DNA from: Escherichia phage JEP7
DNA length: 52,936 bases
Sequence record: MT764207.1
Strand: one strand, 5' to 3'
The notes under the pieces: model-generated
Seen by the model: the letters and a program-made list of their open reading frames with translations, nothing else
The model's database searches: none
Told to the model about the DNA's origin: nothing
In this document: piece by piece, positions 4,886 through 41,009 of the stretch
Position numbering within the stretch: position 1 is the stretch's first letter
How the letters are laid out: the number at the start of each line of letters is the position of its first letter
Made by a program: the position numbers and the translations under genes

Positions 4886-4907
4886 CCCACAAACGGGACT
4901 AACAAAA

Positions 4908-4937
4908 GGCGAGCTGACGAGCTCGCCTTTTTTATTT
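4908..4937 (+). terminator. rho-independent terminator
   Basis: GGCGAGC-TGACGA-GCTCGCC hairpin (4908-4927) followed by TTTTTTATTT. Confidence 0.75.
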
Positions 4938-25783: not shown

Positions 25784-25985
25784 TAAACCTGAAGTTGTTT
25801 ATGTTGACAGGATAGTCAAGGTTTATCCGCCTGGCGCATACATGGTTAAATGTCATAAGCCTGAATTAACCGGTAACACCTGGAAAGCAATAGGTCAGTT
25901 AGCTATTGAACGTGGAACAGCTCTTGATGATTGTGCAGACAAGATGGACAGCATAATTGACTGGAGTAACAAAGGGGCCGAGTGA
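25710..25985 (+). CDS. o-spanin (Rz1-like lipoprotein)
   Basis: ATG 25710 in the +1 frame inside/overlapping the i-spanin; signal peptide MTKLQKMIRALIPLLLLPFLTSC with lipobox LTSC. Confidence 0.55.
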   Translation: MTKLQKMIRALIPLLLLPFLTSCADKPEVVYVDRIVKVYPPGAYMVKCHKPELTGNTWKAIGQLAIERGTALDDCADKMDSIIDWSNKGAE

Positions 25986-26002
25986 AGGCCCCTTCATTTA
26001 TT
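25974..26002. terminator. bidirectional terminator hairpin between convergent gene blocks
   Basis: GGGGCC-GAGTGAA-GGCCCC hairpin flanked by A-run upstream and TTCATTTATT downstream, at the junction of + strand lysis genes and - strand genes. Confidence 0.55.
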
Positions 26003-26515: not shown

Positions 26516-28483
26516 TTAGTGCGCCTCTGCCCAGTTACTTTCTATCTTAGCATCAGTAAGAACAGGTACACGAAGCGGTAGCACAGTTTCCATGACCCGT
26601 ACGAAATCGTAGAATCCATCTTCTGCTTGCTTACCAGTTGGTAGAGAGAAGTTAAGCTCATCGTGTACCGTCAGGCGAGGCACGCCAATCACGTCGAAGT
26701 AACCGTCTTCATACCCTTTCAGCATTGCAGACTTCATCTGGTCTGCTGACGACCCTTGCAGCACTCGGTTGATTGCTTTGTGGGTGTCTGCCAGTTTAAT
26801 GTTTGGGCCATACTCCTGACGTGCTTCTTCAAATGGCAAAGGCGTCTTCCCGAATCCACCACGTTTTGGGACCCATTTGTTGAACCACGTTTTCCGGCCC
26901 ATAAAGGTTTCTACATACCCCTGGCTATAACATAAATCTTCATAATGCTTCATGGTAGCACCAATGAATGGTGCACCCTGATGGTACGCCTTCAGAACAG
27001 GTTCTGCTTCTTCAGGTGTCATTGCTAACTTACGGGCAAGAGCATTAAGCATCATGCCGTACAACAAACCAAAGTTGATGGTCTTAGCCGGTTTACGCTC
27101 TATAACGTGACCTGAGGCTTCCTTGATAATATCGACCATAACATTGTGGTAATCTGCTTCCGGGTTAGCCGCGAAAATTGCTCGTAACTCATCAGCGCCC
27201 GGGCCGACTGCAAAATGCGCCATGAATCTATATTCAATTTGGGCGTAGTCTGCGGATCCCCATCGGTGTCCGACATCCGGTACGAAACAAGCACGAAGGA
27301 GTGGTCCCAGTATTTTGTGTCTAGACGGTATATTCTGCAGATTAGGGTCAGATGAGCTAAACCGACCACTAACGGTTCCACCGTCATCACCGCGCATTTG
27401 ATGGAATTGACCGTGAAGGAAGCCATTTGTATTCATCCCCAATATATAGCCACGAATAAACGTGGACTGGATTTTTTCATAAGACTTAATCTCAGACACC
27501 AGTTCCGCAAACGGATGGTGCAAGCCTGCTAAGAAGTCCGCTGTAAACGACGGATTACCCGCCGCTGTTTTGAAGTACTCCAGACCTAAATGGTCAAATG
27601 CAAGTGCTAAATCAGGACCGGAGTTAACGTTAATGTTAAAGCCAATCTGGTCTTTAATCTGCTGGTGCATTTTCCTTATTTCAGCGCTAAGCGTATCATC
27701 CGCCTCTTTGGCTTTGTCAAGGTCAACACGCACACCTGCAAAACGCATCTTAAGCATTAATGGAATGAGCTTGCACTCCATATAGAATACGTCTGTTAAA
27801 CACCAGCGACTTAACAAAGGCCACTGGGCTTTGATAATGTGTATTGGTAAGTCGGCGTCAGATTCAGCGTAGTAACCCACAAGACGAGGAGGTGTTTTGT
27901 AGATGTACTTTCTGGCTTCACCTGTTGGCTTACAACCATAAGCATCTGAAATCCATTGGTACATCTCAGCTGAGTCTTTACCTTCGCCTACATACTTTCG
28001 TCCAAGTCCTTCAAGTGCAACACGCGCGCCTGGGTCGAGTAATGCTTCCGCGAATTGTACATCCATGCACAATCCTTTGACTTCCACGCCTTCTGCTGCA
28101 AGCCAGCCCAAGTCATATGTGATGTTAGCACCGACTTTAACTTGGTTAGGTCGCGAGAGTTCGAGCCGAAGCCAACCAAGTACTTCCTCAGCTGGAAGGT
28201 TATCCTCTTCGCCGAGCTCGTGTCTGATTGGGTAGTAAGCCTTGAAGCCATTGTCCGTAGCGATACTAACTCCAACGATATGACCTTCCCTCCTGGCCCA
28301 ACCACTACCATTTGCATCCATCCCTGGGTCATATGTTTCACAGTCAAGACCGATAATCTTCGCAGAAGACAAATCCGGGTAATGCGCGCGCGGCCGCCAT
28401 CCAGTATCCCTGACGTATGGTATAGGACGGTTGATAGGTTTAACATTCTTTGCACCTTCAAAGCTATCGAATAAAAAGCTCAT
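26516..28483 (-). CDS. DNA polymerase, family A (PolI-like) with 3'-5' exonuclease domain
   Basis: 655 aa; polymerase motif A (DYAQIEYR), motif B (KTINFGLLYGM), motif C (TVHDELNF); N-terminal exonuclease-like region (GLDCETYD). Confidence 0.9.
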   Translation of the reverse strand: MSFLFDSFEGAKNVKPINRPIPYVRDTGWRPRAHYPDLSSAKIIGLDCETYDPGMDANGSGWARREGHIVGVSIATDNGFKAYYPIRHELGEEDNLPAEEVLGWLRLELSRPNQVKVGANITYDLGWLAAEGVEVKGLCMDVQFAEALLDPGARVALEGLGRKYVGEGKDSAEMYQWISDAYGCKPTGEARKYIYKTPPRLVGYYAESDADLPIHIIKAQWPLLSRWCLTDVFYMECKLIPLMLKMRFAGVRVDLDKAKEADDTLSAEIRKMHQQIKDQIGFNINVNSGPDLALAFDHLGLEYFKTAAGNPSFTADFLAGLHHPFAELVSEIKSYEKIQSTFIRGYILGMNTNGFLHGQFHQMRGDDGGTVSGRFSSSDPNLQNIPSRHKILGPLLRACFVPDVGHRWGSADYAQIEYRFMAHFAVGPGADELRAIFAANPEADYHNVMVDIIKEASGHVIERKPAKTINFGLLYGMMLNALARKLAMTPEEAEPVLKAYHQGAPFIGATMKHYEDLCYSQGYVETFMGRKTWFNKWVPKRGGFGKTPLPFEEARQEYGPNIKLADTHKAINRVLQGSSADQMKSAMLKGYEDGYFDVIGVPRLTVHDELNFSLPTGKQAEDGFYDFVRVMETVLPLRVPVLTDAKIESNWAEAH

Positions 28484-29478
28484 CAGTCCCCTCTCACATA
28501 CGCAATTACAACTGTACGAGTTGAGTTTTCCATTTTGAGCGCCTGACTACCAAGCCCTATTCTTTCCATGCCTTTAGCCAGTTTACTCATCTGACTAATA
28601 ACACAGTTGAACGGTTTACTAAACTTAGTCGACTGGAACTTAATGTCGACGGACATCTTAGGAATAATCTTGTCTGGTAAGTCTGCTTTTGCTGTTGACT
28701 CGCCAGTTATCTCCAGAATGGCTTGACCTTCGTCATACCCAGTAAGCTGGTCCATAACTTCCAGGAATTCAGGAGTGATGGCCTGCATATCCATTTCCAT
28801 ATTGAAGAACTTCGATACGTCTGGCCATTTGGCTGCGAGTACCGGAGCATCCATCTGTACGCCATCCGCAAAACCGAAGAACATCTGACCGCGGGTATAT
28901 CCTACGCTTGTGGGTTCCATCTTCAGCTTAACCAGAGCCTCAAGCATTGGTTTGGCTATGGCACATTCAAATTCAAAATCTACATTCAACTTCTCGCGTA
29001 TCATATACTTACCGTTAGTGGCGTAAGCATAACCATCGCGCAGAAGTAAAGATGTTGCCCATACCTGCGGTGCTTCGTTAGGTACCCATTTGGCTAAGGC
29101 AGTTAATACCGGGAGTAATTCGCCATGTGCTGAATACCAGTTGTTAACTGTAGCAAGCGGCGGTATTGGTTCATTAAGCGCTTGCATTCTTGTTTTAAGT
29201 ACACCTGCTGTGACCGTGAGGTTTCCAGCGGCTGTAATGTTAAAAGTAATCTGTTCAGTTCTTGCCGCATTAACGGCCTTACGAAATGATTCAGCATCCA
29301 CTTGCAGGTCTGGAAATCCTTTACATGGCGCTCGTAGTAATACGTTCTTGTAGTATGAATGGATTGTTCCGTCTGCAATCCATATTTTGCCCATAAGACC
29401 ACTATCAGTATACTTGATGGGACGAGCTTGTTGAACGGCAGTCTGTATTTGTTTGGTGTCATAGTTAAACTTGCTCAT
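28483..29478 (-). CDS. hypothetical protein (replication-associated by position)
   Basis: 331 aa ORF between DNA polymerase and ThyA-like gene; no motif recognised. Confidence 0.3.
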   Translation of the reverse strand: MSKFNYDTKQIQTAVQQARPIKYTDSGLMGKIWIADGTIHSYYKNVLLRAPCKGFPDLQVDAESFRKAVNAARTEQITFNITAAGNLTVTAGVLKTRMQALNEPIPPLATVNNWYSAHGELLPVLTALAKWVPNEAPQVWATSLLLRDGYAYATNGKYMIREKLNVDFEFECAIAKPMLEALVKLKMEPTSVGYTRGQMFFGFADGVQMDAPVLAAKWPDVSKFFNMEMDMQAITPEFLEVMDQLTGYDEGQAILEITGESTAKADLPDKIIPKMSVDIKFQSTKFSKPFNCVISQMSKLAKGMERIGLGSQALKMENSTRTVVIAYVRGD

Positions 29479-29508
29479 AGCATAACGGGGCCGAAGCCCC
29501 GCTCCATC

Positions 29509-30393
29509 TTATACGGCCATTTGTAGTTTGATGTTTGGCATTGGTTTGTACTTCTCAACCATTGGCGTAACATCGGCAGGAGTGAAGTCAAACACTGACA
29601 CGTCGTAAATTGCGTTAATGTCAGGACGACCTTCAAAGTTAGTGTCCAGTGTAGTATCAGAATTGCTTACGATACGTTGCAGGAAAATCTTTGCAGCATC
29701 GATATGATTCTGATAGATGTGATAGTCACCCAGCGTAACAGTCATATCACCTACCCCAGTACCCAGCTCAGCAGCAATGGTAATCTGCAGCATTTGATGC
29801 AACAGAATATCGTGAGGCAGACCCAGAATAACATCCGCGCTACGCATGTGGAACATCAGCTCTAATTCATTGCGGTTGTTAATGAACAGCTGAAAACCAT
29901 GGTAACAAGGCGGAAGGGCCATGGCGTCCATCTCTTGTGGGTTCCATGCCGTAATGTATGCCCGGCGGTCAGTAGGCTTAACCTTCAGCGTTTCAATAAC
30001 ATCTTTAAGCTGGTTAGTAAGAACACCATTCTTGTAGAATGGCTTAATCCATTGCACGCCGTACACAGGACCTAAGTCACGGTTGTCTGGCGTACCCCAG
30101 CGTTTGTTTGCGTCCTGCAGGTTACCTTCCCACCAGTTGCAGCCAAAGCCTTTGAGCGTGTCGACGTTTGAAATACCGTTGATAAAGCAGTAAAGCTCAG
30201 CAGCAACAGCTTTGATGTTAACAGGTTTAAACACCGGCACCATCAGTTTGTTGTCGTTAAAAGCCAGCTTAAATGCTGTACCAAAACAACGGCGTGTACC
30301 AACACCTGTACGGTCTACAACATCCTCGCCTTTACGCAGGATAAAAGAAATGATGTCGCTGTAAAGAGAATCGACAGTGCTATATGTTTTCAT
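29509..30393 (-). CDS. thymidylate synthase-fold enzyme with Asn-to-Asp at the pyrimidine specificity position (putative dCMP C5-hydroxymethylase or -methylase)
   Basis: 294 aa; by-eye alignment to E. coli ThyA across DRTGVGT, DLGPVYGVQW, RRAYITAWNP, ALPPC (catalytic Cys163, codon 29905-29907), RSADVILGLPHD, GDYHIYQNH; residue matching ThyA Asn177 is Asp195 (codon 29809-29811). Confidence 0.85.
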   Translation of the reverse strand: MKTYSTVDSLYSDIISFILRKGEDVVDRTGVGTRRCFGTAFKLAFNDNKLMVPVFKPVNIKAVAAELYCFINGISNVDTLKGFGCNWWEGNLQDANKRWGTPDNRDLGPVYGVQWIKPFYKNGVLTNQLKDVIETLKVKPTDRRAYITAWNPQEMDAMALPPCYHGFQLFINNRNELELMFHMRSADVILGLPHDILLHQMLQITIAAELGTGVGDMTVTLGDYHIYQNHIDAAKIFLQRIVSNSDTTLDTNFEGRPDINAIYDVSVFDFTPADVTPMVEKYKPMPNIKLQMAV

Positions 30394-30986
30394 TAAAACA
30401 GTTCCTTTTGAGCCGGGTTAACGTGTGCGTCGATGATGGCCTGGATGTCAGGTGCTTTCCATCCTTCAGGCTTAACAATATCCTGACCAGACTTATGCTT
30501 ACTGTTGCTTGCATCAGGCTTAGCACGTTCTTTCGCCATGTTAGCAACTTGTACCGCATCCCATGCTGCGTCGAGTGGCCAGTTGTTGTTTGCACACCAG
30601 GTAATCAGGTGGATAATTAACTGGGCCAGACGGTCGCAATGAGTGTCTTCAGTATCCTTAACGTATACAATAAGGCCGTCAGCATCGAAGCGGTCCATAA
30701 ATCCGCATGGCGTAGTTAACAGAATCGGATACTCAAATTCGTTGGTGAACCATGCAGTCTGGTCATACAGATATAACGTACCTGCAGCAATGTAAATTAA
30801 ATCTACAATACCGTCTAAGAATCCAGCTTTATCGCCGTCCTTCTTAGCTTGTTTAATTTCTTCCATCTCCTCAATAAGACGGTCATAGCGAAGCTTGAAC
30901 TCAGGTTTACCGCCTTGACTAACAGGCTTGAGGTCAAACTTCTCATGAAAAGCGGTAACGCCTGCAGCAATTTTACTGAATCGCAT
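30393..30986 (-). CDS. MazG-like nucleoside triphosphate pyrophosphohydrolase (putative)
   Basis: 197 aa; acidic helical segment RLIEEMEEIKQAKKDGDKAGFLDGIVDLIYIAAG resembling the EExxE...D metal-binding helices of all-alpha NTP pyrophosphatases; AGGAG RBS. Confidence 0.45.
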   Translation of the reverse strand: MRFSKIAAGVTAFHEKFDLKPVSQGGKPEFKLRYDRLIEEMEEIKQAKKDGDKAGFLDGIVDLIYIAAGTLYLYDQTAWFTNEFEYPILLTTPCGFMDRFDADGLIVYVKDTEDTHCDRLAQLIIHLITWCANNNWPLDAAWDAVQVANMAKERAKPDASNSKHKSGQDIVKPEGWKAPDIQAIIDAHVNPAQKELF

Positions 30987-31371
30987 TTCGTAACTCCTTA
31001 CAAACAGTTTCGATAAACTTACGCTTAATTTCTGTAGACCAGATAATATGACGAGCCTGTTCTAAAGTGTCCCAACGTTCTTTACCCACAGGAAAGGGAA
31101 CAATGAAAAGGCCGGTACGGGATATGCGCTTGATAAACGGGAATTTACAGCGCATGGTTGTTTCAAACTTGATAAAGTTGGTTTGCACTTCGCGTGTAAA
31201 CTTGACCTTATCAAATTCATGTTCAAGAGTTTGAGCAAGGTTGCATACTTCCTGGAAAGAAGATGTGGGTAAATAATCTTCGCGGCCGACGGTGTTCACG
31301 TAGTCGATTTGGCCTTCGAGTCGAAGTATCCAAATCCTGTAATAAGCTTCAGCAACACGTTGTAGGTTCAT
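30973..31371 (-). CDS. hypothetical protein
   Basis: 132 aa; GAGGAGAG RBS; first gene downstream of promoter at 31398-31426. Confidence 0.3.
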   Translation of the reverse strand: MNLQRVAEAYYRIWILRLEGQIDYVNTVGREDYLPTSSFQEVCNLAQTLEHEFDKVKFTREVQTNFIKFETTMRCKFPFIKRISRTGLFIVPFPVGKERWDTLEQARHIIWSTEIKRKFIETVCKELRNAIQ

Positions 31372-31397
31372 TGTATCTCTCCTCTAAAAGATAACTT

Positions 31398-31426
31398 ATT
31401 ATACCACATCACTCTCTAGTGGTAAA
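31398..31426 (-). promoter_or_regulatory. promoter with TTTACC -35 and extended -10 (TGgTATAAT), CCAC/GTGG dyad in spacer
   Basis: minus-strand reading CTTTACCACTAGAGAGTGATGTGGTATAAT; 17-nt spacer. Confidence 0.5.
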
Positions 31427-31453
31427 GCACTTTTTACGCTTCTGGTAAAAATA

Positions 31454-31482
31454 AAAAGGACCAGCGTTAACTGGTCCTTTTG
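31454..31482 (-). terminator. rho-independent terminator (minus-strand orientation)
   Basis: GGACCAG-CGTTAA-CTGGTCC stem-loop with A-run on + strand, i.e. hairpin followed by TTTTTATTTTT on the minus strand. Confidence 0.6.
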
Positions 31483-32047
31483 GCAGGGTGGCGTAAGGAG
31501 ATACAAGGCATCATAACTATGCAACCAGGCAGCGCATATGAGATTGGCCAAAAGATTTACCATTTTAATCCCCGCGACGAGACGAAAGGAGGTGCCATCA
31601 AGTAGCCAATCACATATGCGTTACTTGCTGTGTGCTCTCACCGCGGAAAGTATAGAGCGTTGCACTTATCACACCGATGGAGTGGCAAAAGCACACAGCA
31701 AGTACAACCTTAGTTGTGGTGTCTTAGCACCTGAGTTATTGTGGATAACCTGCACCCGACGGGTGTCAAAAAGATACGCCAAAACACCACAACTAAAATT
31801 GTGACCGCCGTCTACACCAGGCGCCTGGGGTCAAGGTAGCGAGCCAATACCCTTTTCAGCGTCGGAGGAATCGAACCTCACACATCACGGCTTTTACCAA
31901 ATCTCGGTCAGCGAGCAGAATTGAACTGCATTCACTGGACACCCTCACTGTTTCAACACACCAGGCTTAATTGATTGTTGATAAGAAGAGAGATGTAAGG
32001 ATGTCCATTGAATGCACCTCCGTAGAGGTGCGTTCAGATCAGCGCTA
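31483..32047 (-). ncRNA. candidate structured non-coding RNA / long 3' UTR
   Basis: about 570 nt without a credible ORF between the stop of 32048-32515 and the terminator; contains nested inverted repeats (CTTAGTTGTGGTGT ... ACACCACAACTAA enclosing CACCC-GAC-GGGTG), a 12-bp palindrome CCAGGCGCCTGG and a tRNA T-arm-like GAGGTTCGATTCCTC on the minus strand. Confidence 0.3.
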
Positions 32048-32515
32048 TTATTCAGCAACTTCTTCGTTGTCGCCTTCGATCGCGCCAGCCAGTTTAGCAG
32101 CTTCAGCTTTAGCAGCTTCTGCTTTCTGGCGAGCTTTTTCAGCTTTCTCTTCAGCTTTGCGAATCTGCTCAGCAGCTTTCGCTTCGGCTTTTTCAGCTTT
32201 GATGCGAGCACGCTCTTCAGCTTTACGCTGTTTTTCAGCGGCTTTAGCAGCATCGCGTTCTGCTTTAGCGGTATCAACACGCTTAGCCAGAACTTTACCA
32301 GTGGCTTTACGCCAGTAGGTCAGCTGGGAAGAAACAGTACCACGGGACATTTCGGTAGTGGCAACAACTTCGTCCATAACGTCAGAGCTGGACTTGCCTT
32401 CTTCATGGGCTTTATCAGCCAGGTCCCATACGTAACGTGCGCCAGTACCAGCTGCCGGATACAGTACGCCGTTAACTTCTTCTTTACCAGTTACAAAAGT
32501 CAGTTTCTCGCTCAT
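32048..32515 (-). CDS. Lys/Ala/Glu-repeat protein (histone H1-like, putative DNA-binding)
   Basis: ATG 32515 with GAGGA RBS; C-terminal third is KAAEK/AEKA low-complexity repeats; codon choice typical of highly expressed genes. Confidence 0.4.
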   Translation of the reverse strand: MSEKLTFVTGKEEVNGVLYPAAGTGARYVWDLADKAHEEGKSSSDVMDEVVATTEMSRGTVSSQLTYWRKATGKVLAKRVDTAKAERDAAKAAEKQRKAEERARIKAEKAEAKAAEQIRKAEEKAEKARQKAEAAKAEAAKLAGAIEGDNEEVAE

Positions 32516-32621
32516 AATTTTTTCCTCGTCTACAGGGCTTAATGTTTGTTCGTTACGTGAGTTAATATACGTCATTTAAAAGAGTGTGTAAACACCTTTT
32601 TTAAACTTTTTTCATTAGTGT

Positions 32622-32849
32622 CTAGAAAGGCACATCATAGTCAAAAAGTTTACATCCGGAAGACAGGACTGCCGGCGGTGGTGTTTTGCCTCCGGATAAT
32701 AGACAACCTCCTGCCTGAAAACTACGGCAGTTCGCACAGCTCATATCCTGCAGGTATATAATAAGCTGCCGGCGAACATGCCGTGGTAAAGCTTTAGCTT
32801 GGGTAGCTACCCGTTCAAATAGTTCTCTGTCATCGAGCGCCATAGCCAT
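32622..32849 (-). CDS. hypothetical small Cys-containing protein
   Basis: 75 aa ORF overlapping the helicase 3' end; weak call. Confidence 0.25.
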   Translation of the reverse strand: MAMALDDRELFERVATQAKALPRHVRRQLIIYLQDMSCANCRSFQAGGCLLSGGKTPPPAVLSSGCKLFDYDVPF

Positions 32850-34500
32850 TCCCCCAGTCGTAGTTCATGATTTGTGGGTAGGGTCGTTTAATCCATACCT
32901 TGATGCGCTTAGGAATAGCCAGCTCACCCTTACGGCGAATAAACTCATCGCATGTTTCAGGCGGTTCGGTTCCTGCAGCATTACGCCACCAGGCATCTGC
33001 CATTTGCTTAGCATTACCATGGGCCTCAATATTTACCCAAGTTGTGTACACTTCCAGGTTTGAATAATACACAACCTTTATACTGTCAGGCCGTCCTTGC
33101 TTCTGGAATAAAGAATAGTTTACCAGCGTAACATCCTTATCCACAACACGAAGCTGACCGTTAGTCATTACCTCTTCTTCTGATGAAGTGAAGGCAATAG
33201 CAGGTCCGTTAACTGTAAATTCAAATTCATGTCCGCACATCGGATATACACCATTCTCGTCTGGCGTACTTCCTTTAGCCGGATGTTTACATGTACGAGC
33301 AGCATAACCACTTACCTGGTGGCAGATAGGGCACTCTTTACCGCCAGGTGTTTTCTCTGACCGTTTCTTTTTCTTCTTACCAAGACGTGGCGGAACAGCC
33401 GGGTCATCAATAGGACCAAGGTCAATGGTGTTAGATGTGAAGTCCATAACAAGACAGTCATGCTTACCAGGCGCTGTACGTAATCCTCGACCGAGTATCT
33501 GCACCCACAAGGCAACAGACGTGGACGGGCGCAAGATGCCGAGCATATCAATTTCAGGATAGTCAAAGCCTGTTGTCAATACGTTTACGTTTACGCATAC
33601 CCTGGCACGTCCGCTTGTAAACTCTTCCAGTGCGGCTTCACGTTCTTTCTTTGTAAGACCGCCATGCACAACTACAGTCTGCCACCCGCGCAGATTAAAT
33701 TCGTCTGCTATGTTGTGGGCGTGCTCAACACTTGTGGCAAATACAAGAACGTGGTTCCTGTCTTTACCGTAGTGCATCATCTCACGAATAGCCGCGACTG
33801 TTATACTATGCTGGTTGGCTACCTTCTCGAGCTCTGACGGGATATAGTCACCCATCCTTTCGCCAACATTACTGGTGTCAATCTTGGTTAACACTTTCTT
33901 GTTGACCAGGCGCGACAGGAAGCCTTCATTTACCAGTCGGGTGAATGCGTCAGGTGTTGTAAGGTCATAGCAGATGTCGGTAAATATACCACAGTCAAGC
34001 AAGTGACCACCTGCCAGTCGATACGGAGTTGCTGTAAGGCCTGTTACCTTTACCTTAGGATTAAGCTCTTTGAAATGAGCAATAACCTTACGGTATGTTG
34101 TTTCAGACTTCTCAGGAACGAGATGGGCTTCGTCAATGAATATAAGATTGAACTTACCTGCTTCTTCCAGGTTCTTAATAATCGACTGTACTGACGCTAC
34201 AACTATACGACCTGAAAAGTCTTTGTGTCCTGCACCTGAAGAGTAGATTGATACTGGTGCTTGTGGCCAGTGGCGAACAATTGCTTTGGCGTCTTGTTCT
34301 ACCAGCTCCTTGACGTGTGTCAATATAAGAATGCGCTGACGTGGATAGCTGGTAAGAATATCCTTCATCAACATACCAAGCACAGGTGATTTACCTGAAC
34401 CTGTTGGCATGACAATAAGTGGGTTACCACTATAAGAATTGAAGTACGACCACCAAGCGGTCACAGCTTCTTGTTGATACCAGCGAGCTTCAAAAGCCAT
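32830..34500 (-). CDS. superfamily 2 DEAD/DEAH-box DNA helicase with C-terminal zinc-ribbon
   Basis: 556 aa; motif I VMPTGSGKS, motif II FIDEAH, motif III-like LTATP; C-terminal CPICH...C...C cluster. Confidence 0.8.
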   Translation of the reverse strand: MAFEARWYQQEAVTAWWSYFNSYSGNPLIVMPTGSGKSPVLGMLMKDILTSYPRQRILILTHVKELVEQDAKAIVRHWPQAPVSIYSSGAGHKDFSGRIVVASVQSIIKNLEEAGKFNLIFIDEAHLVPEKSETTYRKVIAHFKELNPKVKVTGLTATPYRLAGGHLLDCGIFTDICYDLTTPDAFTRLVNEGFLSRLVNKKVLTKIDTSNVGERMGDYIPSELEKVANQHSITVAAIREMMHYGKDRNHVLVFATSVEHAHNIADEFNLRGWQTVVVHGGLTKKEREAALEEFTSGRARVCVNVNVLTTGFDYPEIDMLGILRPSTSVALWVQILGRGLRTAPGKHDCLVMDFTSNTIDLGPIDDPAVPPRLGKKKKKRSEKTPGGKECPICHQVSGYAARTCKHPAKGSTPDENGVYPMCGHEFEFTVNGPAIAFTSSEEEVMTNGQLRVVDKDVTLVNYSLFQKQGRPDSIKVVYYSNLEVYTTWVNIEAHGNAKQMADAWWRNAAGTEPPETCDEFIRRKGELAIPKRIKVWIKRPYPQIMNYDWGNGYGAR

Positions 34501-34526
34501 TTATCATCTCCTCATTAACTTTATAT

Positions 34527-34555
34527 ATTATACCACTTCCTTGTGGTAAAGTATA
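34527..34555 (-). promoter_or_regulatory. promoter with extended -10 (TGgTATAAT) and CCAC/GTGG dyad
   Basis: minus-strand reading CTTTACCACAAGGAAGTGGTATAAT upstream of helicase gene. Confidence 0.45.
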
Positions 34556-34558
34556 CTT

Positions 34559-35437
34559 TTATTTTAAGGAAAGTTTAACGGGCTTCTCATCCTGCGGGAA
34601 GACATCAGCAGGGCGATAATCATCACAAGCTGCTAATTGCTCTTCGAGTGTTTCGAGTTCTTTCTGGTGCTTGTTGCAGTACCACACTTTGCCCTGGAGC
34701 GGTTTACTGTAATGGCAGGTTCTGCAGTTCCTGTCTGGCATTGCTCCTTTGTGGCACAGGTGATGGTATTCGCACATCCCTGGTTTGCACTCCCACCAAA
34801 TAGGCGATTCAGAAATCTTCGGCATATCCAAACCAGATTCCGCATATACAACAGCCTCCGCTTTACTCAGTTGTATGTCGCTTTCCAGTAAGTCAATCTC
34901 GACCACCTCAAAATACATCTCGTCGGTGTTCTTGTTGATTGCGATGTACACAGCTTGATTCAGCTTAAGCTTCCGCATGTATACCTGCATCTGGGCATAG
35001 TGTACCGGCTTACTTGCTTTAACAGACTTGAGCTTGACTAACTCTTTAAACGACTTATCGCCATGCGTCTTGAATTCAGCAAGTGCCCATACGCCTTTGT
35101 ATTTAATTACACAGTCACAAGACCCAGAGAAGATGTCATTGAATTCGTGTATGCGCCATTGCTTACCAGTCTTGGGATTGACGTCCAGCACCTCATCACA
35201 TACGGAACGAAGCCACTTTACAATTCTGCTTTCTTCAAGGTTACCTCGCTCAAACAGACGAAGTTGCTTAGCTGTAAACTTCTCCTTGAACGACCAGTGC
35301 AGAACGTGCCAAAGATAGCGATAGCAGTTGTGCCCTATCTGCGATGCTCCAAGATGCCCGCGTCGTTCTTCTCTTTCGTGGGCTTCGACTATCTTGATGT
35401 CAATACGTTTCTGCAGGTCGTCAAACGGACTTGGCAT
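34559..35437 (-). CDS. PD-(D/E)XK exonuclease (Cas4/RecB-nuclease-like) with C-terminal Cys cluster
   Basis: ATG 35437 with GAGGAG RBS; D...EFK motif (DCVIKYKGVWALAEFKTHGD); C-terminal CKPGMC...C..C....C cysteine cluster. Confidence 0.5.
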   Translation of the reverse strand: MPSPFDDLQKRIDIKIVEAHEREERRGHLGASQIGHNCYRYLWHVLHWSFKEKFTAKQLRLFERGNLEESRIVKWLRSVCDEVLDVNPKTGKQWRIHEFNDIFSGSCDCVIKYKGVWALAEFKTHGDKSFKELVKLKSVKASKPVHYAQMQVYMRKLKLNQAVYIAINKNTDEMYFEVVEIDLLESDIQLSKAEAVVYAESGLDMPKISESPIWWECKPGMCEYHHLCHKGAMPDRNCRTCHYSKPLQGKVWYCNKHQKELETLEEQLAACDDYRPADVFPQDEKPVKLSLK

Positions 35438-35906
35438 TGTTAAACTCCTCAACGCTGAATTCATCGTACACAATATTATGAGCCCACAAATGAGCGACGG
35501 CGTTTGCCATACTGTCTTTCCATTTGGATTGTGAAGCTGTATGAGCCAATGCAACTACACGAACCAGGTTAAGGTTGGCTATCAGCATATCTGCACAATG
35601 TTCGCACGGCGGGTAGGTTATGTAGATGGTAACCGGGCCTAAAGAAGGAGTGTCTAACTCACTCCTTATATTAGCTAAGGTATTTATCTCGCTATGAATA
35701 GTTAGAGCGTTCTTGAGGCTATTAGGCACTATTCTTATAGAGTCTAGCTGCGTAGGTAAGCCGTTATATCCAGTGGAAATAATACGCTTGTTCTGGTCCA
35801 CAAGAACACTACCGACTTGACGTTTCGGGTCCTTTGACCAGCTTGCAACTTCACAAGCTATGCGCATAAACCGCTTGTCCCACTTGTCCATCTTCTTCTT
35901 TTGCAT
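35421..35906 (-). CDS. dCMP deaminase (cytidine/deoxycytidylate deaminase family)
   Basis: 161 aa; zinc-binding motifs HSEINT and PCEHC. Confidence 0.85.
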   Translation of the reverse strand: MQKKKMDKWDKRFMRIACEVASWSKDPKRQVGSVLVDQNKRIISTGYNGLPTQLDSIRIVPNSLKNALTIHSEINTLANIRSELDTPSLGPVTIYITYPPCEHCADMLIANLNLVRVVALAHTASQSKWKDSMANAVAHLWAHNIVYDEFSVEEFNNAKSV

Positions 35907-35925
35907 GGTAGTCTCCGTATACGAA

Positions 35926-35945
35926 AATAGGGGCCGAAGCCCCTA
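35926..35945 (-). terminator. GGGGC-UUCG-GCCCC hairpin (possible terminator/attenuator)
   Basis: minus-strand hairpin GGGGCTTCGGCCCC followed by TATTTTCG, between SSB-like gene stop and dCMP deaminase start. Confidence 0.4.
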
Positions 35946-35967
35946 TTGAATATCTACTCGGCAGGGA

Positions 35968-36513
35968 TTACTCTTCCCAAGGAGCTGCTTCACCACCATC
36001 AGTACCAGGTGCCGTTGCAGTAGCACTCCCCTTCATTGAAGTACCCGCACCTGCACCTACTTTCTTCGTCGTCGATGCAGTTGCTTGAGACTGACCGCCT
36101 ACTGCAGTAGTTGCTTCAGTTGACGCTTTGTATTCGCGAATATCGTTTTGTGGGTCGTATTCACCGGTCTTGTCGATACGAACACCAACTTTACCGGCTA
36201 CAATACGGTTTTCCAGTAAGTCGGTAGAAGTCAGTTCAACAATACCCAGCGCACGACACAACGCAGACAGTTTGCGATGACCGATTTCAACAGCTTGTGC
36301 ATTAGGGTTGGAGTAGGTAATCATGTCAAATACAACACGGTTAGCGAACTCACCTTCCTGCACTTTCAGACGCAGGGACAGGTAAGAACCAGTGCCTGCT
36401 TTAGTCGGCTTCAGCTCAACCTCTTCAATCATGAAGTTGTACCAGCCTTTCGGGATAGGGTCAAAAGACTGTTGCGGTTCGACGGTAGAGCTGTTGAAGT
36501 TTAATTCAGCCAT
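35968..36513 (-). CDS. putative ssDNA-binding protein
   Basis: 181 aa; Gly/Ala/Thr-rich flexible C-terminal region ending in acidic tail (APWEE); adjacent to RecA-like ATPase; weak call. Confidence 0.3.
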   Translation of the reverse strand: MAELNFNSSTVEPQQSFDPIPKGWYNFMIEEVELKPTKAGTGSYLSLRLKVQEGEFANRVVFDMITYSNPNAQAVEIGHRKLSALCRALGIVELTSTDLLENRIVAGKVGVRIDKTGEYDPQNDIREYKASTEATTAVGGQSQATASTTKKVGAGAGTSMKGSATATAPGTDGGEAAPWEE

Positions 36514-36585: not shown

Positions 36586-36615
36586 ATTATACGCCACTTT
36601 TTATCATGGCGTAAA
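36586..36615 (-). promoter_or_regulatory. promoter (TTTACG ... GTGGCGTATAAT)
   Basis: minus-strand reading GTTTACGCCATGATAAAAAGTGGCGTATAAT. Confidence 0.4.
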
Positions 36616-38242: not shown

Positions 38243-38290
38243 AGTACTCTCCAGGGAGGAAGACTGGCGGGCTTGCACCCGCCTAAGTTA

Positions 38291-40263: not shown

Positions 40264-40282
40264 GGGGCTTGTGCTAAGCCCC
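40264..40282 (-). terminator. hairpin (possible terminator)
   Basis: GGGGCTT-GTGCT-AAGCCCC stem-loop between genes; minus-strand downstream CTTTTGG. Confidence 0.35.
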
Positions 40283-40288
40283 GTCTAA

Positions 40289-40738
40289 TTACTCGGCTTC
40301 TTCCGTAGCCGCCGGGGTGAATGTTACAGTCGGAATACCAGGCGAGGTCTTCACAACAGGGTCGACGATAGCCAGTTGTTCTGGTGTCAGGTTACGGTAT
40401 GCAGTAACTGACATTTCATACTTGGTTTTAAACAGCTTGGCAACAACAGTCTTCGGTAACTTCTTCATTACATCAGGCACAAGCTTCTGATCAAGTGAGC
40501 GGTTAACCTTCTGCTCAACCTTGAGTTTACCAGGTACGCCATGCATACTGAACTCAACAGTTTGTGTACCTTCTTTACCGCGGTTGATAATCATGTCGCG
40601 TTCAAGACGTGCTTTAATGGTCCGGCGCAACGTCTCCTGGTCAGCTTTCGCTTGTGCCATCCAGCGGTTCAGATTCGCCAGCTTGTCGTACAGCTGTTCC
40701 GTGTCCATCGATTCCAGTTCTTGTGGGTTCAATGCCAT
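40289..40738 (-). CDS. hypothetical protein
   Basis: ATG 40738 with GAGGA RBS; overlaps upstream ORF by about 98 nt. Confidence 0.3.
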   Translation of the reverse strand: MALNPQELESMDTEQLYDKLANLNRWMAQAKADQETLRRTIKARLERDMIINRGKEGTQTVEFSMHGVPGKLKVEQKVNRSLDQKLVPDVMKKLPKTVVAKLFKTKYEMSVTAYRNLTPEQLAIVDPVVKTSPGIPTVTFTPAATEEAE

Positions 40739-41009
40739 CAGTTGTTTCCTCAGGTTGCATGTGCATAGTTGCACCAATTAGTAGACAATAGTTATTGAAC
40801 ATTGTACGTAGTGCCTGGCCCGCAGCAATATCCGTTACGTCTATTATACCACTTTTAGTGGTGACGCGTAAAGCTTTTTCTTTCTTTGTTTTTTCCACGA
40901 ATGCAATGCTGATGATTTCTTCCGCATGGATTACGTGGATGGTACCTGCAAACTCACCAGTCTTAGCTGGCGCCTGGTACACTAACGACATAGACGGTTG
41001 GTTACTCAC
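40641..41009 (-). CDS. hypothetical protein
   Basis: GTG start at 41009 with AGGAG RBS; 3' part overlaps next gene and contains promoter-like sequence. Confidence 0.25.
   Translation of the reverse strand: MSNQPSMSLVYQAPAKTGEFAGTIHVIHAEEIISIAFVEKTKKEKALRVTTKSGIIDVTDIAAGQALRTMFNNYCLLIGATMHMQPEETTDGIEPTRTGIDGHGTAVRQAGESEPLDGTSES
40843..40872 (-). promoter_or_regulatory. promoter with extended -10 (TGgTATAAT) and CCAC/GTGG dyad
   Basis: minus-strand reading CTTTACGCGTCACCACTAAAAGTGGTATAAT. Confidence 0.4.

What the first reader, a model, noticed from the sequence alone, without database searches (positions are those of the whole stretch)
29486..35943. Identical GGGGC-UUCG-GCCCC hairpins at two nucleotide-metabolism gene junctions
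The same stable tetraloop hairpin occurs on the minus strand at 29486-29501 (between the ThyA-like gene stop and the next gene start) and at 35930-35943 (between the SSB-like gene stop and the dCMP deaminase start). Only the second is followed by a U-rich tract. They may be transcript-stability or processing elements.
Basis: seen in the sequence. Interest (0 to 1): 0.35.

Follow-up and report, generated by a model that had tools for sequence, protein, structure and literature searches.

The report
Two look-alike hairpins, two different jobs
Two identical ultra-stable RNA hairpins between phage replication genes are real and conserved, but one most likely ends the SSB transcript while the other most likely bridges a split ribosome-binding site, as in phage T4 gene 38; both are known kinds of element.

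Summary
GGGGCUUCGGCCCC occurs exactly twice, both on the minus (sense) strand and both intergenic (2 C(UUCG)G hairpins with stems of 5+ bp, against 0.07 expected). The window is a complete Rosemountvirus-type phage genome. Both hairpins are kept, with compensatory stem changes, in relatives only 65-80% identical. In those relatives the two stems differ from each other, so the 14-mer identity is convergence, not a repeated element.

Site 2 (35926-35947) lies after the SSB-like gene. In all relatives it is a classical A-tract/stem/U-tract intrinsic terminator followed by a normal SD. It is probably leaky, because the next two genes have no recognisable promoter of their own.

Site 1 (29486-29501) sits between a conserved GGAG and the AUG of the DNA polymerase processivity-factor gene. 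That gene has no other SD. The linear SD-AUG distance is 23 nt, and 7 nt lie outside the hairpin. This is the architecture, and almost the same hairpin, of the experimentally studied T4 gene 38 split ribosome-binding site.

Scans of viral contigs show the same hairpin is a common intercistronic element, mostly of the site-2 type and less often of the site-1 type. Nothing here is experimentally tested. I rate it a new member of known kinds, of modest interest.

The parts
29486..29501 (-). Hairpin 1: CGGGGC-UUCG-GCCCCG (6 bp plus C(UUCG)G tetraloop). It can extend by G.U and A-U pairs into the AG of the upstream GGAG.
   Evidence: Folds at -12.0 kcal/mol, z -3.1, and is kept in the MFE and centroid of the 55-nt context. 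Covariation in relatives: 4 of 8 pairs changed on both sides, 93.8% of cells paired.
29502..29505 (-). GGAG, the only Shine-Dalgarno-like motif upstream of the processivity-factor gene. It abuts the 5' base of hairpin 1 and lies 23 nt from the AUG.
   Evidence: SD census. Invariant in all four clades although the bases between the stop codon and GGAG vary in length and sequence.
29479..29485 (-). 7-nt spacer UUAUGCU between hairpin 1 and the AUG. It contains no SD. Position 29481 is G here and A in all relatives, which creates an out-of-frame AUG.
29476..29478 (-). AUG start of the DNA polymerase processivity-factor ('beta subunit') gene (28483-29478).
   Evidence: ORF list. M1, K3, F4 and 12 more of the first 28 residues are invariant across relatives of 65-81% identity. 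phrog_947.
29509..30393 (-). Thymidylate synthase gene upstream of hairpin 1; stop codon at 29509-29511.
   Evidence: PF00303, E 2e-62.
35926..35947 (-). Hairpin 2: AAUAGGGGC-UUCG-GCCCCUAUU (five G-C/C-G pairs, including the loop-closing C-G, plus 4 A-U/U-A pairs).
   Evidence: Folds at -14.5 kcal/mol, z -3.4, and is the centroid structure of the 81-nt context. Covariation: 6 of 9 pairs changed on both sides, 100% of cells paired.
35919..35929 (-). U-rich tract UAUUUUCGUAU following the GC core of hairpin 2. It partly pairs with the upstream AAUA. Relatives have an uninterrupted U5.
35913..35916 (-). Ordinary SD (GGAG) of the dCMP deaminase gene, 6 nt before the AUG at 35906 and downstream of hairpin 2.
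35968..36513 (-). SSB-like gene (DUF669) whose transcript hairpin 2 would terminate.
36586..36615 (-). Sigma-70-like promoter (TTTACG, 18 nt, TATAAT) upstream of the SSB-like gene. Together with hairpin 2 it frames a short transcription unit.
   Evidence: Consensus scan. The equivalent site is annotated as a promoter in BP63. Prediction only.
35421..35906 (-). dCMP deaminase gene downstream of hairpin 2. No promoter-like site lies between hairpin 2 and this gene or the next one (exonuclease, 34559-35437).
   Evidence: PF00383, E 2e-21.

Best explanation
The two hairpins are independent RNA elements built on the same extra-stable C(UUCG)G hairpin, and they probably do different jobs. Hairpin 2 is a Rho-independent terminator/attenuator at the end of the SSB-like gene. 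RNA polymerase starting at the promoter upstream of that gene transcribes the GC stem and the U-rich tract, and a fraction of transcripts end there. The hairpin left at the 3' end protects the abundant SSB message. Read-through transcripts supply the dCMP deaminase and exonuclease genes, which use an ordinary SD downstream of the hairpin. Hairpin 1 is the insert of a split (noncontiguous) ribosome-binding site. The only SD (GGAG) lies 23 nt before the AUG of the processivity-factor gene, too far to work in a linear RNA. The fast-folding 16-nt hairpin loops out the intervening bases, so only 7 nt lie outside it, and a 30S subunit can hold the SD and the AUG together. Shown here: existence, strand specificity, conservation with compensatory changes, the geometry, the absence of any other SD, and near-identity of the design to T4 gene 38. 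Inferred: that translation and termination actually behave this way in this phage.
For: Structure is real and RNA-level: compensatory changes appear in both stems across four clades, and the G.U pairs and the UUCG loop work only on the sense strand. Hairpin 2: every relative has A-tract, GC stem, U5, then an SD 5-7 nt before the AUG. Crude d'Aubenton-Carafa-type scores are 20-29 for relatives. A promoter-like site lies upstream of the SSB-like gene and none lies before the next two genes. In an unfiltered sample of this 14-mer in viral contigs, 78 of 110 usable occurrences have the same hairpin-then-SD-then-start layout. Hairpin 1: 48 of 65 genes in this genome have an SD of 4+ nt at 3-13 nt, and this gene has none except GGAG at 23 nt. 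GGAG, the hairpin, and the 7-10 nt lying outside the hairpin between GGAG and the AUG are conserved in all clades while the surrounding bases change. The start codon is confirmed by a conserved N-terminus. The T4 gene 37-38 junction reads UAA GGAG A GGGGC UUCG GCCC UUCUAAAU AUG, the case for which a review reports 22 nt reduced to 5 nt and loss of initiation when the structure is destabilised (PMC3014915; PMC7297116). The exact design GGAG, 0-3 nt, this hairpin, 4-10 nt, ATG occurs in at least 120 viral contigs against 17 for a CCTC control. Those matches include 72 distinct junctions and 23 unrelated downstream protein families. None has an SD in the spacer, tails are U-poor, and 5-8 nt lie outside the stem in 81 of 105.
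Against: There are no transcript-end, half-life or translation data for this phage group; the papers found contain predictions only. In this window the U-tract of hairpin 2 is interrupted (UAUUUUCGUAU), my crude score is about 0, and the built-in scanner did not list it. A phage (rivia) lacking the whole site-2 junction is deposited as a genome, so hairpin 2 may be dispensable. In relatives hairpin 1 is followed by UUUU and scores as terminator-like (d 12-18), so it may also or instead terminate. The AG of the GGAG can pair with the following UU, which could hinder rather than help. 17 of 65 annotated genes here lack a canonical SD, so SD-independent or coupled initiation exists in this genome. 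Among hairpin-adjacent real starts in viral contigs only 18% have a strict SD just upstream, so the upstream SD is enriched (against 2.5%, p 5e-4) but is not the rule.
Confidence: 0.6

Rival explanations
1. Both hairpins are simply intercistronic mRNA stability or processing elements. They would act as barriers to 3'-to-5' exonucleases after read-through or endonucleolytic cleavage, setting different half-lives for operon segments, with no role in termination or initiation.
For: C(UUCG)G hairpins are reported as common in phage intergenic regions with varied functions, including transcript stabilisation (PMC8948821). Many site-2-type occurrences in viral contigs have only moderately U-rich tails (mean 4.2 T in 8; 30 of 78 have 5+). 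The U-tracts in this window are imperfect.
Against: This does not explain the invariant GGAG abutting hairpin 1, the lack of any other SD for an essential replication gene, or the conserved A-tract plus U5 around hairpin 2 in relatives.
Confidence: 0.2
2. Hairpin 1 is mainly a weak intrinsic terminator/attenuator separating the nucleotide-metabolism genes from the clamp and polymerase genes. The downstream gene would then be translated by termination-reinitiation or SD-independent initiation, and the GGAG would be incidental or part of the extended stem.
For: Relatives have UUUU right after the stem and positive crude terminator scores. Site 1 is the only sizeable gap in an otherwise overlapping operon. 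Most hairpin-adjacent starts in viral contigs lack a strict upstream SD.
Against: In this window the tail is GUUAUGCU with a score of about -1.5. No promoter is predicted for the clamp and polymerase genes downstream, so termination cannot be efficient. GGAG is invariant while neighbouring bases vary. Site-1-type junctions elsewhere have U-poor tails. A dual role remains possible.
Confidence: 0.2
3. Hairpin 1 is a translational damper. By pairing the AG of the SD and crowding the initiation region, it lowers clamp translation relative to thymidylate synthase.
For: The MFE structure extends the stem to 8 bp using A-U and G.U pairs with the SD. In 62 of 105 site-1-type junctions elsewhere the stem can reach into GGAG.
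Against: T4 gene 38 has the same potential extension (AGAGGGGC/GCCCUUCU), yet the structure is reported to enhance initiation (PMC3014915). The extension pairs are weak. Without the hairpin the SD would be 23 nt away and useless.
Confidence: 0.1
4. The palindromes act at the DNA level, as a protein-binding site or cruciform, or the repeat is a chance event.
For: Perfect inverted repeats are symmetric in DNA, and the antisense strand folds almost as well.
Against: G.U pairs in relatives become C-A mismatches on the other strand. UUCG is conserved on the sense strand only. Both copies are intergenic and on the sense strand. Shuffles reach 2 copies in 0.1% of trials.
Confidence: 0.03

Closest known systems
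Split (noncontiguous) translation initiation region of bacteriophage T4 gene 38, and the related T4 gene 25 (Gold 1988; Nivinskas et al. 1999; Malys and Nivinskas 2009, as summarised in PMC3014915 and PMC7297116)
   Same: The layout is the same: stop codon of the upstream gene, GGAG, a C(UUCG)G hairpin, a short A/U-rich spacer, then AUG. T4 reads UAA GGAG A GGGGC UUCG GCCC UUCUAAAU AUG (22 nt linear). Window site 1 reads UAA GAU GGAG C GGGGC UUCG GCCCC G UUAUGCU AUG (23 nt linear). Thirteen of the 14 hairpin-core bases are identical. There is no SD in the spacer.
   Different: The gene is unrelated (processivity factor versus tail-fibre assembly protein) and so is the phage lineage, so this is convergence, not homology. 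No mutational or probing data exist here. In relatives a UUUU follows the stem, which T4 gene 38 lacks.
Rho-independent (intrinsic) transcription terminators
   Same: Hairpin 2 and its orthologues have a GC-rich stem, a short stable loop, a 3' U-tract and a 5' A-tract. They sit just after a stop codon and ahead of the next gene's own SD.
   Different: In this window the U-tract is interrupted, and four of its bases can pair with the A-rich 5' flank. The terminator must be leaky, because two downstream genes have no recognisable promoter. Termination has not been measured.
C(UUCG)G extra-stable tetraloop hairpins of phage intercistronic regions (Tuerk et al. 1988, as cited in PMC8948821 and PMC4371310)
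   Same: Both have the UUCG loop and C-G closing pair, a stem within the reported (X)2-8 CUUCGG (Y)2-8 form, and an intergenic position in a phage.
   Different: That class is defined by structure, not function. Here the two copies can each be assigned a likely and different function from context.
E. coli thrS split ribosome-binding site (Sacerdot et al. 1998, cited in PMC7297116)
   Same: A hairpin interrupts the ribosome-binding region and is tolerated by the 30S subunit.
   Different: In thrS the SD is properly spaced, and the hairpin separates it from an upstream enhancer and serves as a protein operator. No regulator is indicated here.

Membership tests
C(UUCG)G extra-stable hairpin | UUCG tetraloop closed by a C-G pair | tested here: met
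   Both sites read C-UUCG-G. The loop is kept in most relatives, with the exceptions S144 site 1 (UUAG) and Erwinia site 2 (a 7-nt loop).
C(UUCG)G extra-stable hairpin | Watson-Crick stem of about 2-8 further pairs, on the transcribed strand, in an intercistronic position | tested here: met
   Stems of 6 and 9 bp on the sense strand within 30-nt and 61-nt intergenic gaps.
Split (T4 gene 38/25-type) translation initiation region | The SD is too far from the start codon in the linear sequence (about 20 nt or more), with no other SD nearer | tested here: met
   GGAG lies 23 nt from the AUG, and no SD-like motif of 4+ nt lies at 3-13 nt. Most other genes in the genome have one.
Split (T4 gene 38/25-type) translation initiation region | A stable hairpin lies wholly between the SD and the AUG and reduces the spacing to a functional 5-11 nt | tested here: met
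   A 16-nt hairpin leaves 7 nt outside it in the window, 8-10 nt in relatives and 6 nt in T4 gene 38 by the same count. The hairpin is present in the context MFE.
Split (T4 gene 38/25-type) translation initiation region | The arrangement is conserved with structure-preserving changes among related phages | tested here: met
   Four clades keep it; 4 of 8 pairs have double changes and GGAG is invariant. The sample is small (4 distinct sequences).
Split (T4 gene 38/25-type) translation initiation region | Destabilising the hairpin lowers translation initiation and restoring it rescues | not testable with these tools
   This needs reporter fusions or toeprinting. It is reported for T4 only (PMC3014915).
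Intrinsic (Rho-independent) terminator | GC-rich stem-loop immediately followed by a U-rich tract | tested here: met
   Met for hairpin 2. The window has UAUUUUCGUAU after the GC core, which is imperfect; relatives have U5 plus a 5' A-tract, with crude d scores of 20-29.
Intrinsic (Rho-independent) terminator | The same feature applied to hairpin 1 | tested here: inconclusive
   The window tail GUUAUGCU gives nT 2.37 and d about -1.5. Relatives have UUUUAACU or UUUUAUUAU with d 12-18.
Intrinsic (Rho-independent) terminator | Transcript 3' ends map to the U-tract | not testable with these tools
   No transcriptome data were found for Rosemountvirus or Loughboroughvirus.
Any curated RNA family (Rfam 15) | Match at the gathering threshold | tested here: not met
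   There were 0 matches in the whole window.

The most novel reading that the evidence does not exclude
The SD, C(UUCG)G hairpin, AUG 'split' ribosome-binding site is not a T4 curiosity. It would be a widespread, repeatedly evolved junction design in phages, placed right after the stop codon of an upstream gene, in which one hairpin serves both as the 3' end or protective element of the upstream message and as the bridge that lets ribosomes start the next gene on read-through RNA. Site 1 and its U-tailed orthologues would be such a dual-purpose element.
Probability: 0.4. Interest if true: 0.55.

Novelty: new member of a known kind. Interest (0 to 1): 0.35.

Why it matters
For this phage group it gives a concrete, testable map of how the replication module is expressed. 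There would be an SSB unit closed by a leaky terminator, and a clamp/polymerase block whose translation depends on a hairpin-bridged ribosome-binding site. Automatic annotation misses both features or mislabels them; for example, a 'promoter' and an 'RBS' are annotated inside the hairpin of S144.

More generally, it adds a second, independently evolved and phylogenetically supported lineage to the very short list of natural split ribosome-binding sites. The viral-contig scans also suggest that the design recurs in many unrelated phage genes. This matters for gene-start prediction and for RBS-strength calculators, which treat structure between the SD and the AUG as inhibitory.

It also cautions against reading identical short hairpins as copies of one element. 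The usable sequence space (a G/C stem plus CUUCGG) is so small that identity arises by convergence.

Tried and rejected
- **Built-in terminator scan:** it lists neither site. For site 2 this is because it extends the stem maximally into the A-U pairs, which leaves too few T in the tail, so absence from that list is not evidence against a terminator.
- **My own d'Aubenton-Carafa-style score:** it is crude. It uses modern energies with a formula recalled from memory, and obvious terminators at 31481 and 4904 also score near 0 when A-U pairs are counted in the stem. I use it only for relative comparison.
- **IMG/VR searches with the processivity-factor protein and with a six-sequence alignment:** they returned only the known isolates plus one metagenomic genome (L013). 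The comparative depth is therefore four clades.
- **tblastn against all phage records:** beyond these clades it found only clamps of 20-27% identity in unrelated genome types, which are not useful for junction homology.
- **Tuerk et al. 1988 (PMC279771):** the paper is not held, so its content is cited second-hand from PMC8948821 and PMC4371310.
- **T4 gene 38 sequence typed from memory:** it hit T2/JS98-type gp38 and was not used. The real T4 junction was read from NC_000866.
- **Repeated or mobile element:** rejected. There are only two copies, with no flank similarity and different stems in relatives.
- **RNase III site:** rejected, because the stems are far too short.
- **Quantification limits:** They give lower bounds and arbitrary samples, not totals.


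Full report
**What the window is.** The 52,936-nt window is a complete genome of a Rosemountvirus-type (BP63-like) myophage. It is co-linear, base for base, with Escherichia phage vB_EcoM_PiR (OM313461). Over the first 50 kb there are 1386 substitutions and no indels. The finding lies in the leftward (minus-strand) replication and nucleotide-metabolism module.

**Check of the observation.** GGGGCTTCGGCCCC occurs on the minus strand at 29487-29500 and 35930-35943 and nowhere else, even with 2 mismatches.
- The full stems are CGGGGC-UUCG-GCCCCG (29501..29486) and AAUAGGGGC-UUCG-GCCCCUAUU (35947..35926).
- A repeated 14-mer alone would not be remarkable in 53 kb. Two C(UUCG)G hairpins with stems of 5+ bp are: 1000 dinucleotide shuffles give a mean of 0.072, and 0.1% reach two.
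- Both are intergenic and on the sense strand of their operons.
- Isolated, they fold at -12.0 and -14.5 kcal/mol (z -3.1 and -3.4). Both persist in the MFE and centroid structures of their 55-nt and 81-nt contexts.
- Gene identities are ThyA (PF00303), dCMP deaminase (PF00383) and an 'SSB' that matches DUF669.
- The gene after site 1 is a DNA polymerase processivity factor (phrog_947), not a nucleotide-metabolism gene.

**Comparative evidence.** Sixty phage records share the region. About 44 are more than 92% identical, and 15 lie in the 60-80% identity band. I read both junctions in BP63, swi3, ciri, SE13 and rivia (close relatives). I also read them in S144, SE4 and Klebsiella AEV23 (Loughboroughvirus), in fHy-Eco03, KE25, KM and the metagenomic genome L013, and in Erwinia SOI901.
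- Synteny and gap sizes are conserved.
- Both hairpins are present everywhere except at site 2 in rivia, and the stem sequences differ between clades.
- On loop-anchored alignments, site 1 has 93.8% of cells paired, with changes on both sides in 4 of 8 pairs.
- Site 2 has 100% of cells paired, with changes on both sides in 6 of 9 pairs.
- Registers slid by 1-3 columns drop to 26-70% paired, with at most one pair changed on both sides (none at site 1).
- Several pairs are G.U, which would be C-A on the opposite strand, and the UUCG loop is conserved on the sense strand only. The structures therefore act as RNA.
- In the other clades the site-1 and site-2 stems are not identical to each other. 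In S144, for example, they are GGGCGGC/GUCGCCC and CAGGAGC/GCUCCUG. The 14-mer identity in the BP63 clade is convergence within a tiny sequence space, not duplication.

**Site 2.** In sense orientation the window reads: UAA, 20 nt, AAUAGGGGC UUCG GCCCCUAUU UUCGUAUAC GGAG ACUACC AUG.
- Every relative has A-tract, GC stem and U5, and then an SD 5-7 nt before the AUG. Crude terminator scores for relatives are 20-29.
- A sigma-70-like promoter (TTTACG, 18 nt, TATAAT; 36615..36586) precedes the SSB-like gene and is annotated as a promoter in BP63.
- No promoter-like site precedes the deaminase or the exonuclease gene. The next one lies before the helicase gene.
- The best reading is a leaky intrinsic terminator that closes a short, strongly expressed SSB unit and meters read-through into the enzymes downstream.
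- In this window the U-tract is interrupted, so efficiency may be modest.
- Phage rivia carries a 79-nt in-frame deletion that removes the whole junction and fuses the SSB-like gene to the deaminase gene. If the assembly is right, the element is dispensable.

**Site 1.** In sense orientation the window reads: UAA GAU GGAG C GGGGC UUCG GCCCC G UUAUGCU AUG.
- An SD census of the 65 annotated genes checked shows 48 with an SD-like motif of 4+ nt at 3-13 nt. These include every other gene of this operon.
- The processivity-factor gene has none. Its only SD-like motif is GGAG at 23 nt, with the hairpin exactly in between.
- The start codon is secure: M1, K3, F4 and 12 more of the first 28 residues are invariant in relatives of 65-81% identity.
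- Across the four clades the bases between the stop codon and GGAG vary (GAU; none; AA; CUUCA; CUUUU), but GGAG is invariant.
- The hairpin follows GGAG within 0-2 nt, and the AUG lies 7-9 nt after the hairpin.
- Linear SD-AUG distances are 23-28 nt, and 7-10 nt lie outside the hairpin.
- Site 1 is also the only sizeable gap in an operon whose other genes overlap or abut.

**Comparison with T4.** I read the T4 gene 37-38 junction directly: UAA GGAG A GGGGC UUCG GCCC UUCUAAAU AUG. It has the same layout and nearly the same hairpin. A review states that in T4 genes 38 and 25 a structure between the SD and the AUG reduces 22 nt to 5 nt and 27 nt to 11 nt. It also states that destabilising mutations reduce initiation, with reporter and DMS confirmation for gene 25 (PMC3014915). 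Such sites are called noncontiguous or split (PMC7297116). C(UUCG)G hairpins are described as common in phage intergenic regions, with varied functions (PMC8948821; PMC4371310).

**How general is it?**
The same pattern with CCTC in place of GGAG hits 17 in total.
- Of 128 GGAG matches, 108 have an ORF of 50+ codons ending within 40 nt upstream and another of 50+ codons opening at the ATG. The control gives 7 of 17.
- The 105 matches whose ATG opens an ORF of 50+ codons comprise 72 distinct junctions and 23 BLASTP-unlinked downstream families. These include a T4-like gp38, a tail protein (phrog_394) and a small HTH-like protein.
- Their spacers never contain an SD, and tails are U-poor (mean 2.6 T in 8). 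In 81 of 105, 5-8 nt lie outside the stem.
- Less biased samples temper this. Of 110 usable occurrences of the bare 14-mer, 78 are site-2-like (hairpin, then SD, then start) and 1 is site-1-like.
- Among hairpins with a real-looking start 4-10 nt downstream, 11 of 61 distinct junctions have a strict SD just upstream. That compares with 3 of 119 in the unfiltered sample (p 5e-4) and 2 of 40 for non-gene ATGs (p 0.07).
- So the hairpin is a common intercistronic element. The site-2 layout is its main use, and the site-1 layout is a recurrent minority use.

**Rivals.**
- A terminator role for site 1 is plausible in relatives (UUUU tail, d 12-18) but weak in this window (d about -1.5). It cannot be efficient, because the clamp and polymerase genes have no promoter downstream. 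A dual role is possible.
- A repressive role through pairing of the AG of the SD is disfavoured, because T4 gene 38 has the same potential pairing and is reported to be enhanced.
- DNA-level function and chance are disfavoured by the strand asymmetry and the shuffles.

**Verdict.** These are two conserved RNA hairpins of known kinds. Site 2 is an intrinsic terminator/attenuator (confidence about 0.75). Site 1 is a T4 gene 38-type split ribosome-binding site (about 0.6), not previously described for this phage group in the papers I could search. No Rfam family covers them. I rate the finding a new member of a known kind, of modest interest.

Noticed in passing
L014 (Salmonella phage rivia MT074438) about 430-440; equivalent to window 35897-35975: A 79-nt in-frame deletion removes the last codons of the SSB-like gene, the whole intergenic region with hairpin 2 and the SD, and the first codons of the dCMP deaminase gene. 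It leaves one annotated 1014-nt fusion CDS. The same assembly also splits the processivity-factor gene into two CDSs, so sequence quality is uncertain.
   Followed up: partly
window 1-50000 versus L012 (PiR OM313461): The window has exactly the length of PiR and aligns without a single indel, yet differs at 1386 positions in the first 50 kb (about 2.8%). Many of these are spaced at multiples of three. Some 1-kb bins (30, 33, 36) have no differences and others have 60-80, a mosaic pattern suggesting recombination between close relatives.
   Followed up: partly
window 29481: This is the only difference from PiR within 500 nt around site 1, and it differs from all relatives read. The minus strand has G instead of A in the spacer (GUUAUGCU versus GUUAUACU), which creates an out-of-frame AUG 5 nt upstream of the real start.
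   Followed up: partly
window 40264-40282 (-) and 38266-38283 (-): Two further GC-rich intercistronic hairpins lie in the same leftward module: GGGGCUUAGCACAAGCCCC and GGCGGGUGCAAGCCCGCC. Each sits just after a stop codon and is followed by the next gene's own SD and AUG, the site-2-type layout. The first shares GGGGCUU...AAGCCCC with the 14-mer.
   Followed up: no
window 31454-31481 (-) with 31398-31426 (-); 25972-25994; 4904-4931 (+): A strong terminator-like hairpin (12 bp, then UAUUUUU) lies immediately upstream of a TG-extended sigma-70-like promoter (TTTACC, 17 nt, TATAAT), which starts the operon containing site 1. There is a bidirectional terminator between the convergent late and replication modules, annotated in BP63. 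A further terminator-like hairpin follows the major head protein gene.
   Followed up: no
L002 809-840 (S144 MT663719): The deposited S144 annotation places a 'promoter' and an 'RBS' (AGGU) inside the site-1 hairpin, and another 'promoter' over the site-2 terminator. These are machine predictions that conflict with the conserved RNA structures.
   Followed up: partly
L005 6841-7389 (fHy-Eco03) and L007 3193-3353 (Erwinia SOI901): fHy-Eco03 has an HNH homing endonuclease gene inserted between the dCMP deaminase and exonuclease genes. Erwinia SOI901 carries tRNA-Gln and tRNA-Pro genes in the variable region that corresponds to window positions of about 31.5-32 kb.
   Followed up: no
Loci L020-L139 (IMG/VR), e.g. 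L023, L020, L029: In many marine or metagenomic podovirus-like contigs the same 14-mer hairpin, preceded by GGAG, sits at the junction after an ORF of about 335 codons and before a 92-aa HTH-like gene. It also sits at the junction after an ORF of about 90 codons and before a 194-197-aa tail protein gene (phrog_394). The spacers are U-poor. These look like serial split ribosome-binding sites in a structural operon.
   Followed up: partly
Loci L277-L387 (IMG/VR): Most ORFs of 50+ codons whose ATG lies 4-10 nt after this hairpin (50 of 61 distinct junctions) have no strict SD either upstream of the hairpin or in the spacer. Many are ORFs of 60-70 codons following a stop codon. How these starts are recognised is unexplained; they might use SD-poor hosts or reinitiation, or some may be false ORFs.
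   Followed up: no
window 40641-40991 (-), and small ORFs at 31399-31563 and 32622-32849: The PiR annotation appears to start the 40641-40991 gene 18 nt too far downstream: AGGAG lies 25 nt upstream, and BP63 annotates a longer CDS. It also omits small ORFs that are annotated in BP63.
   Followed up: no
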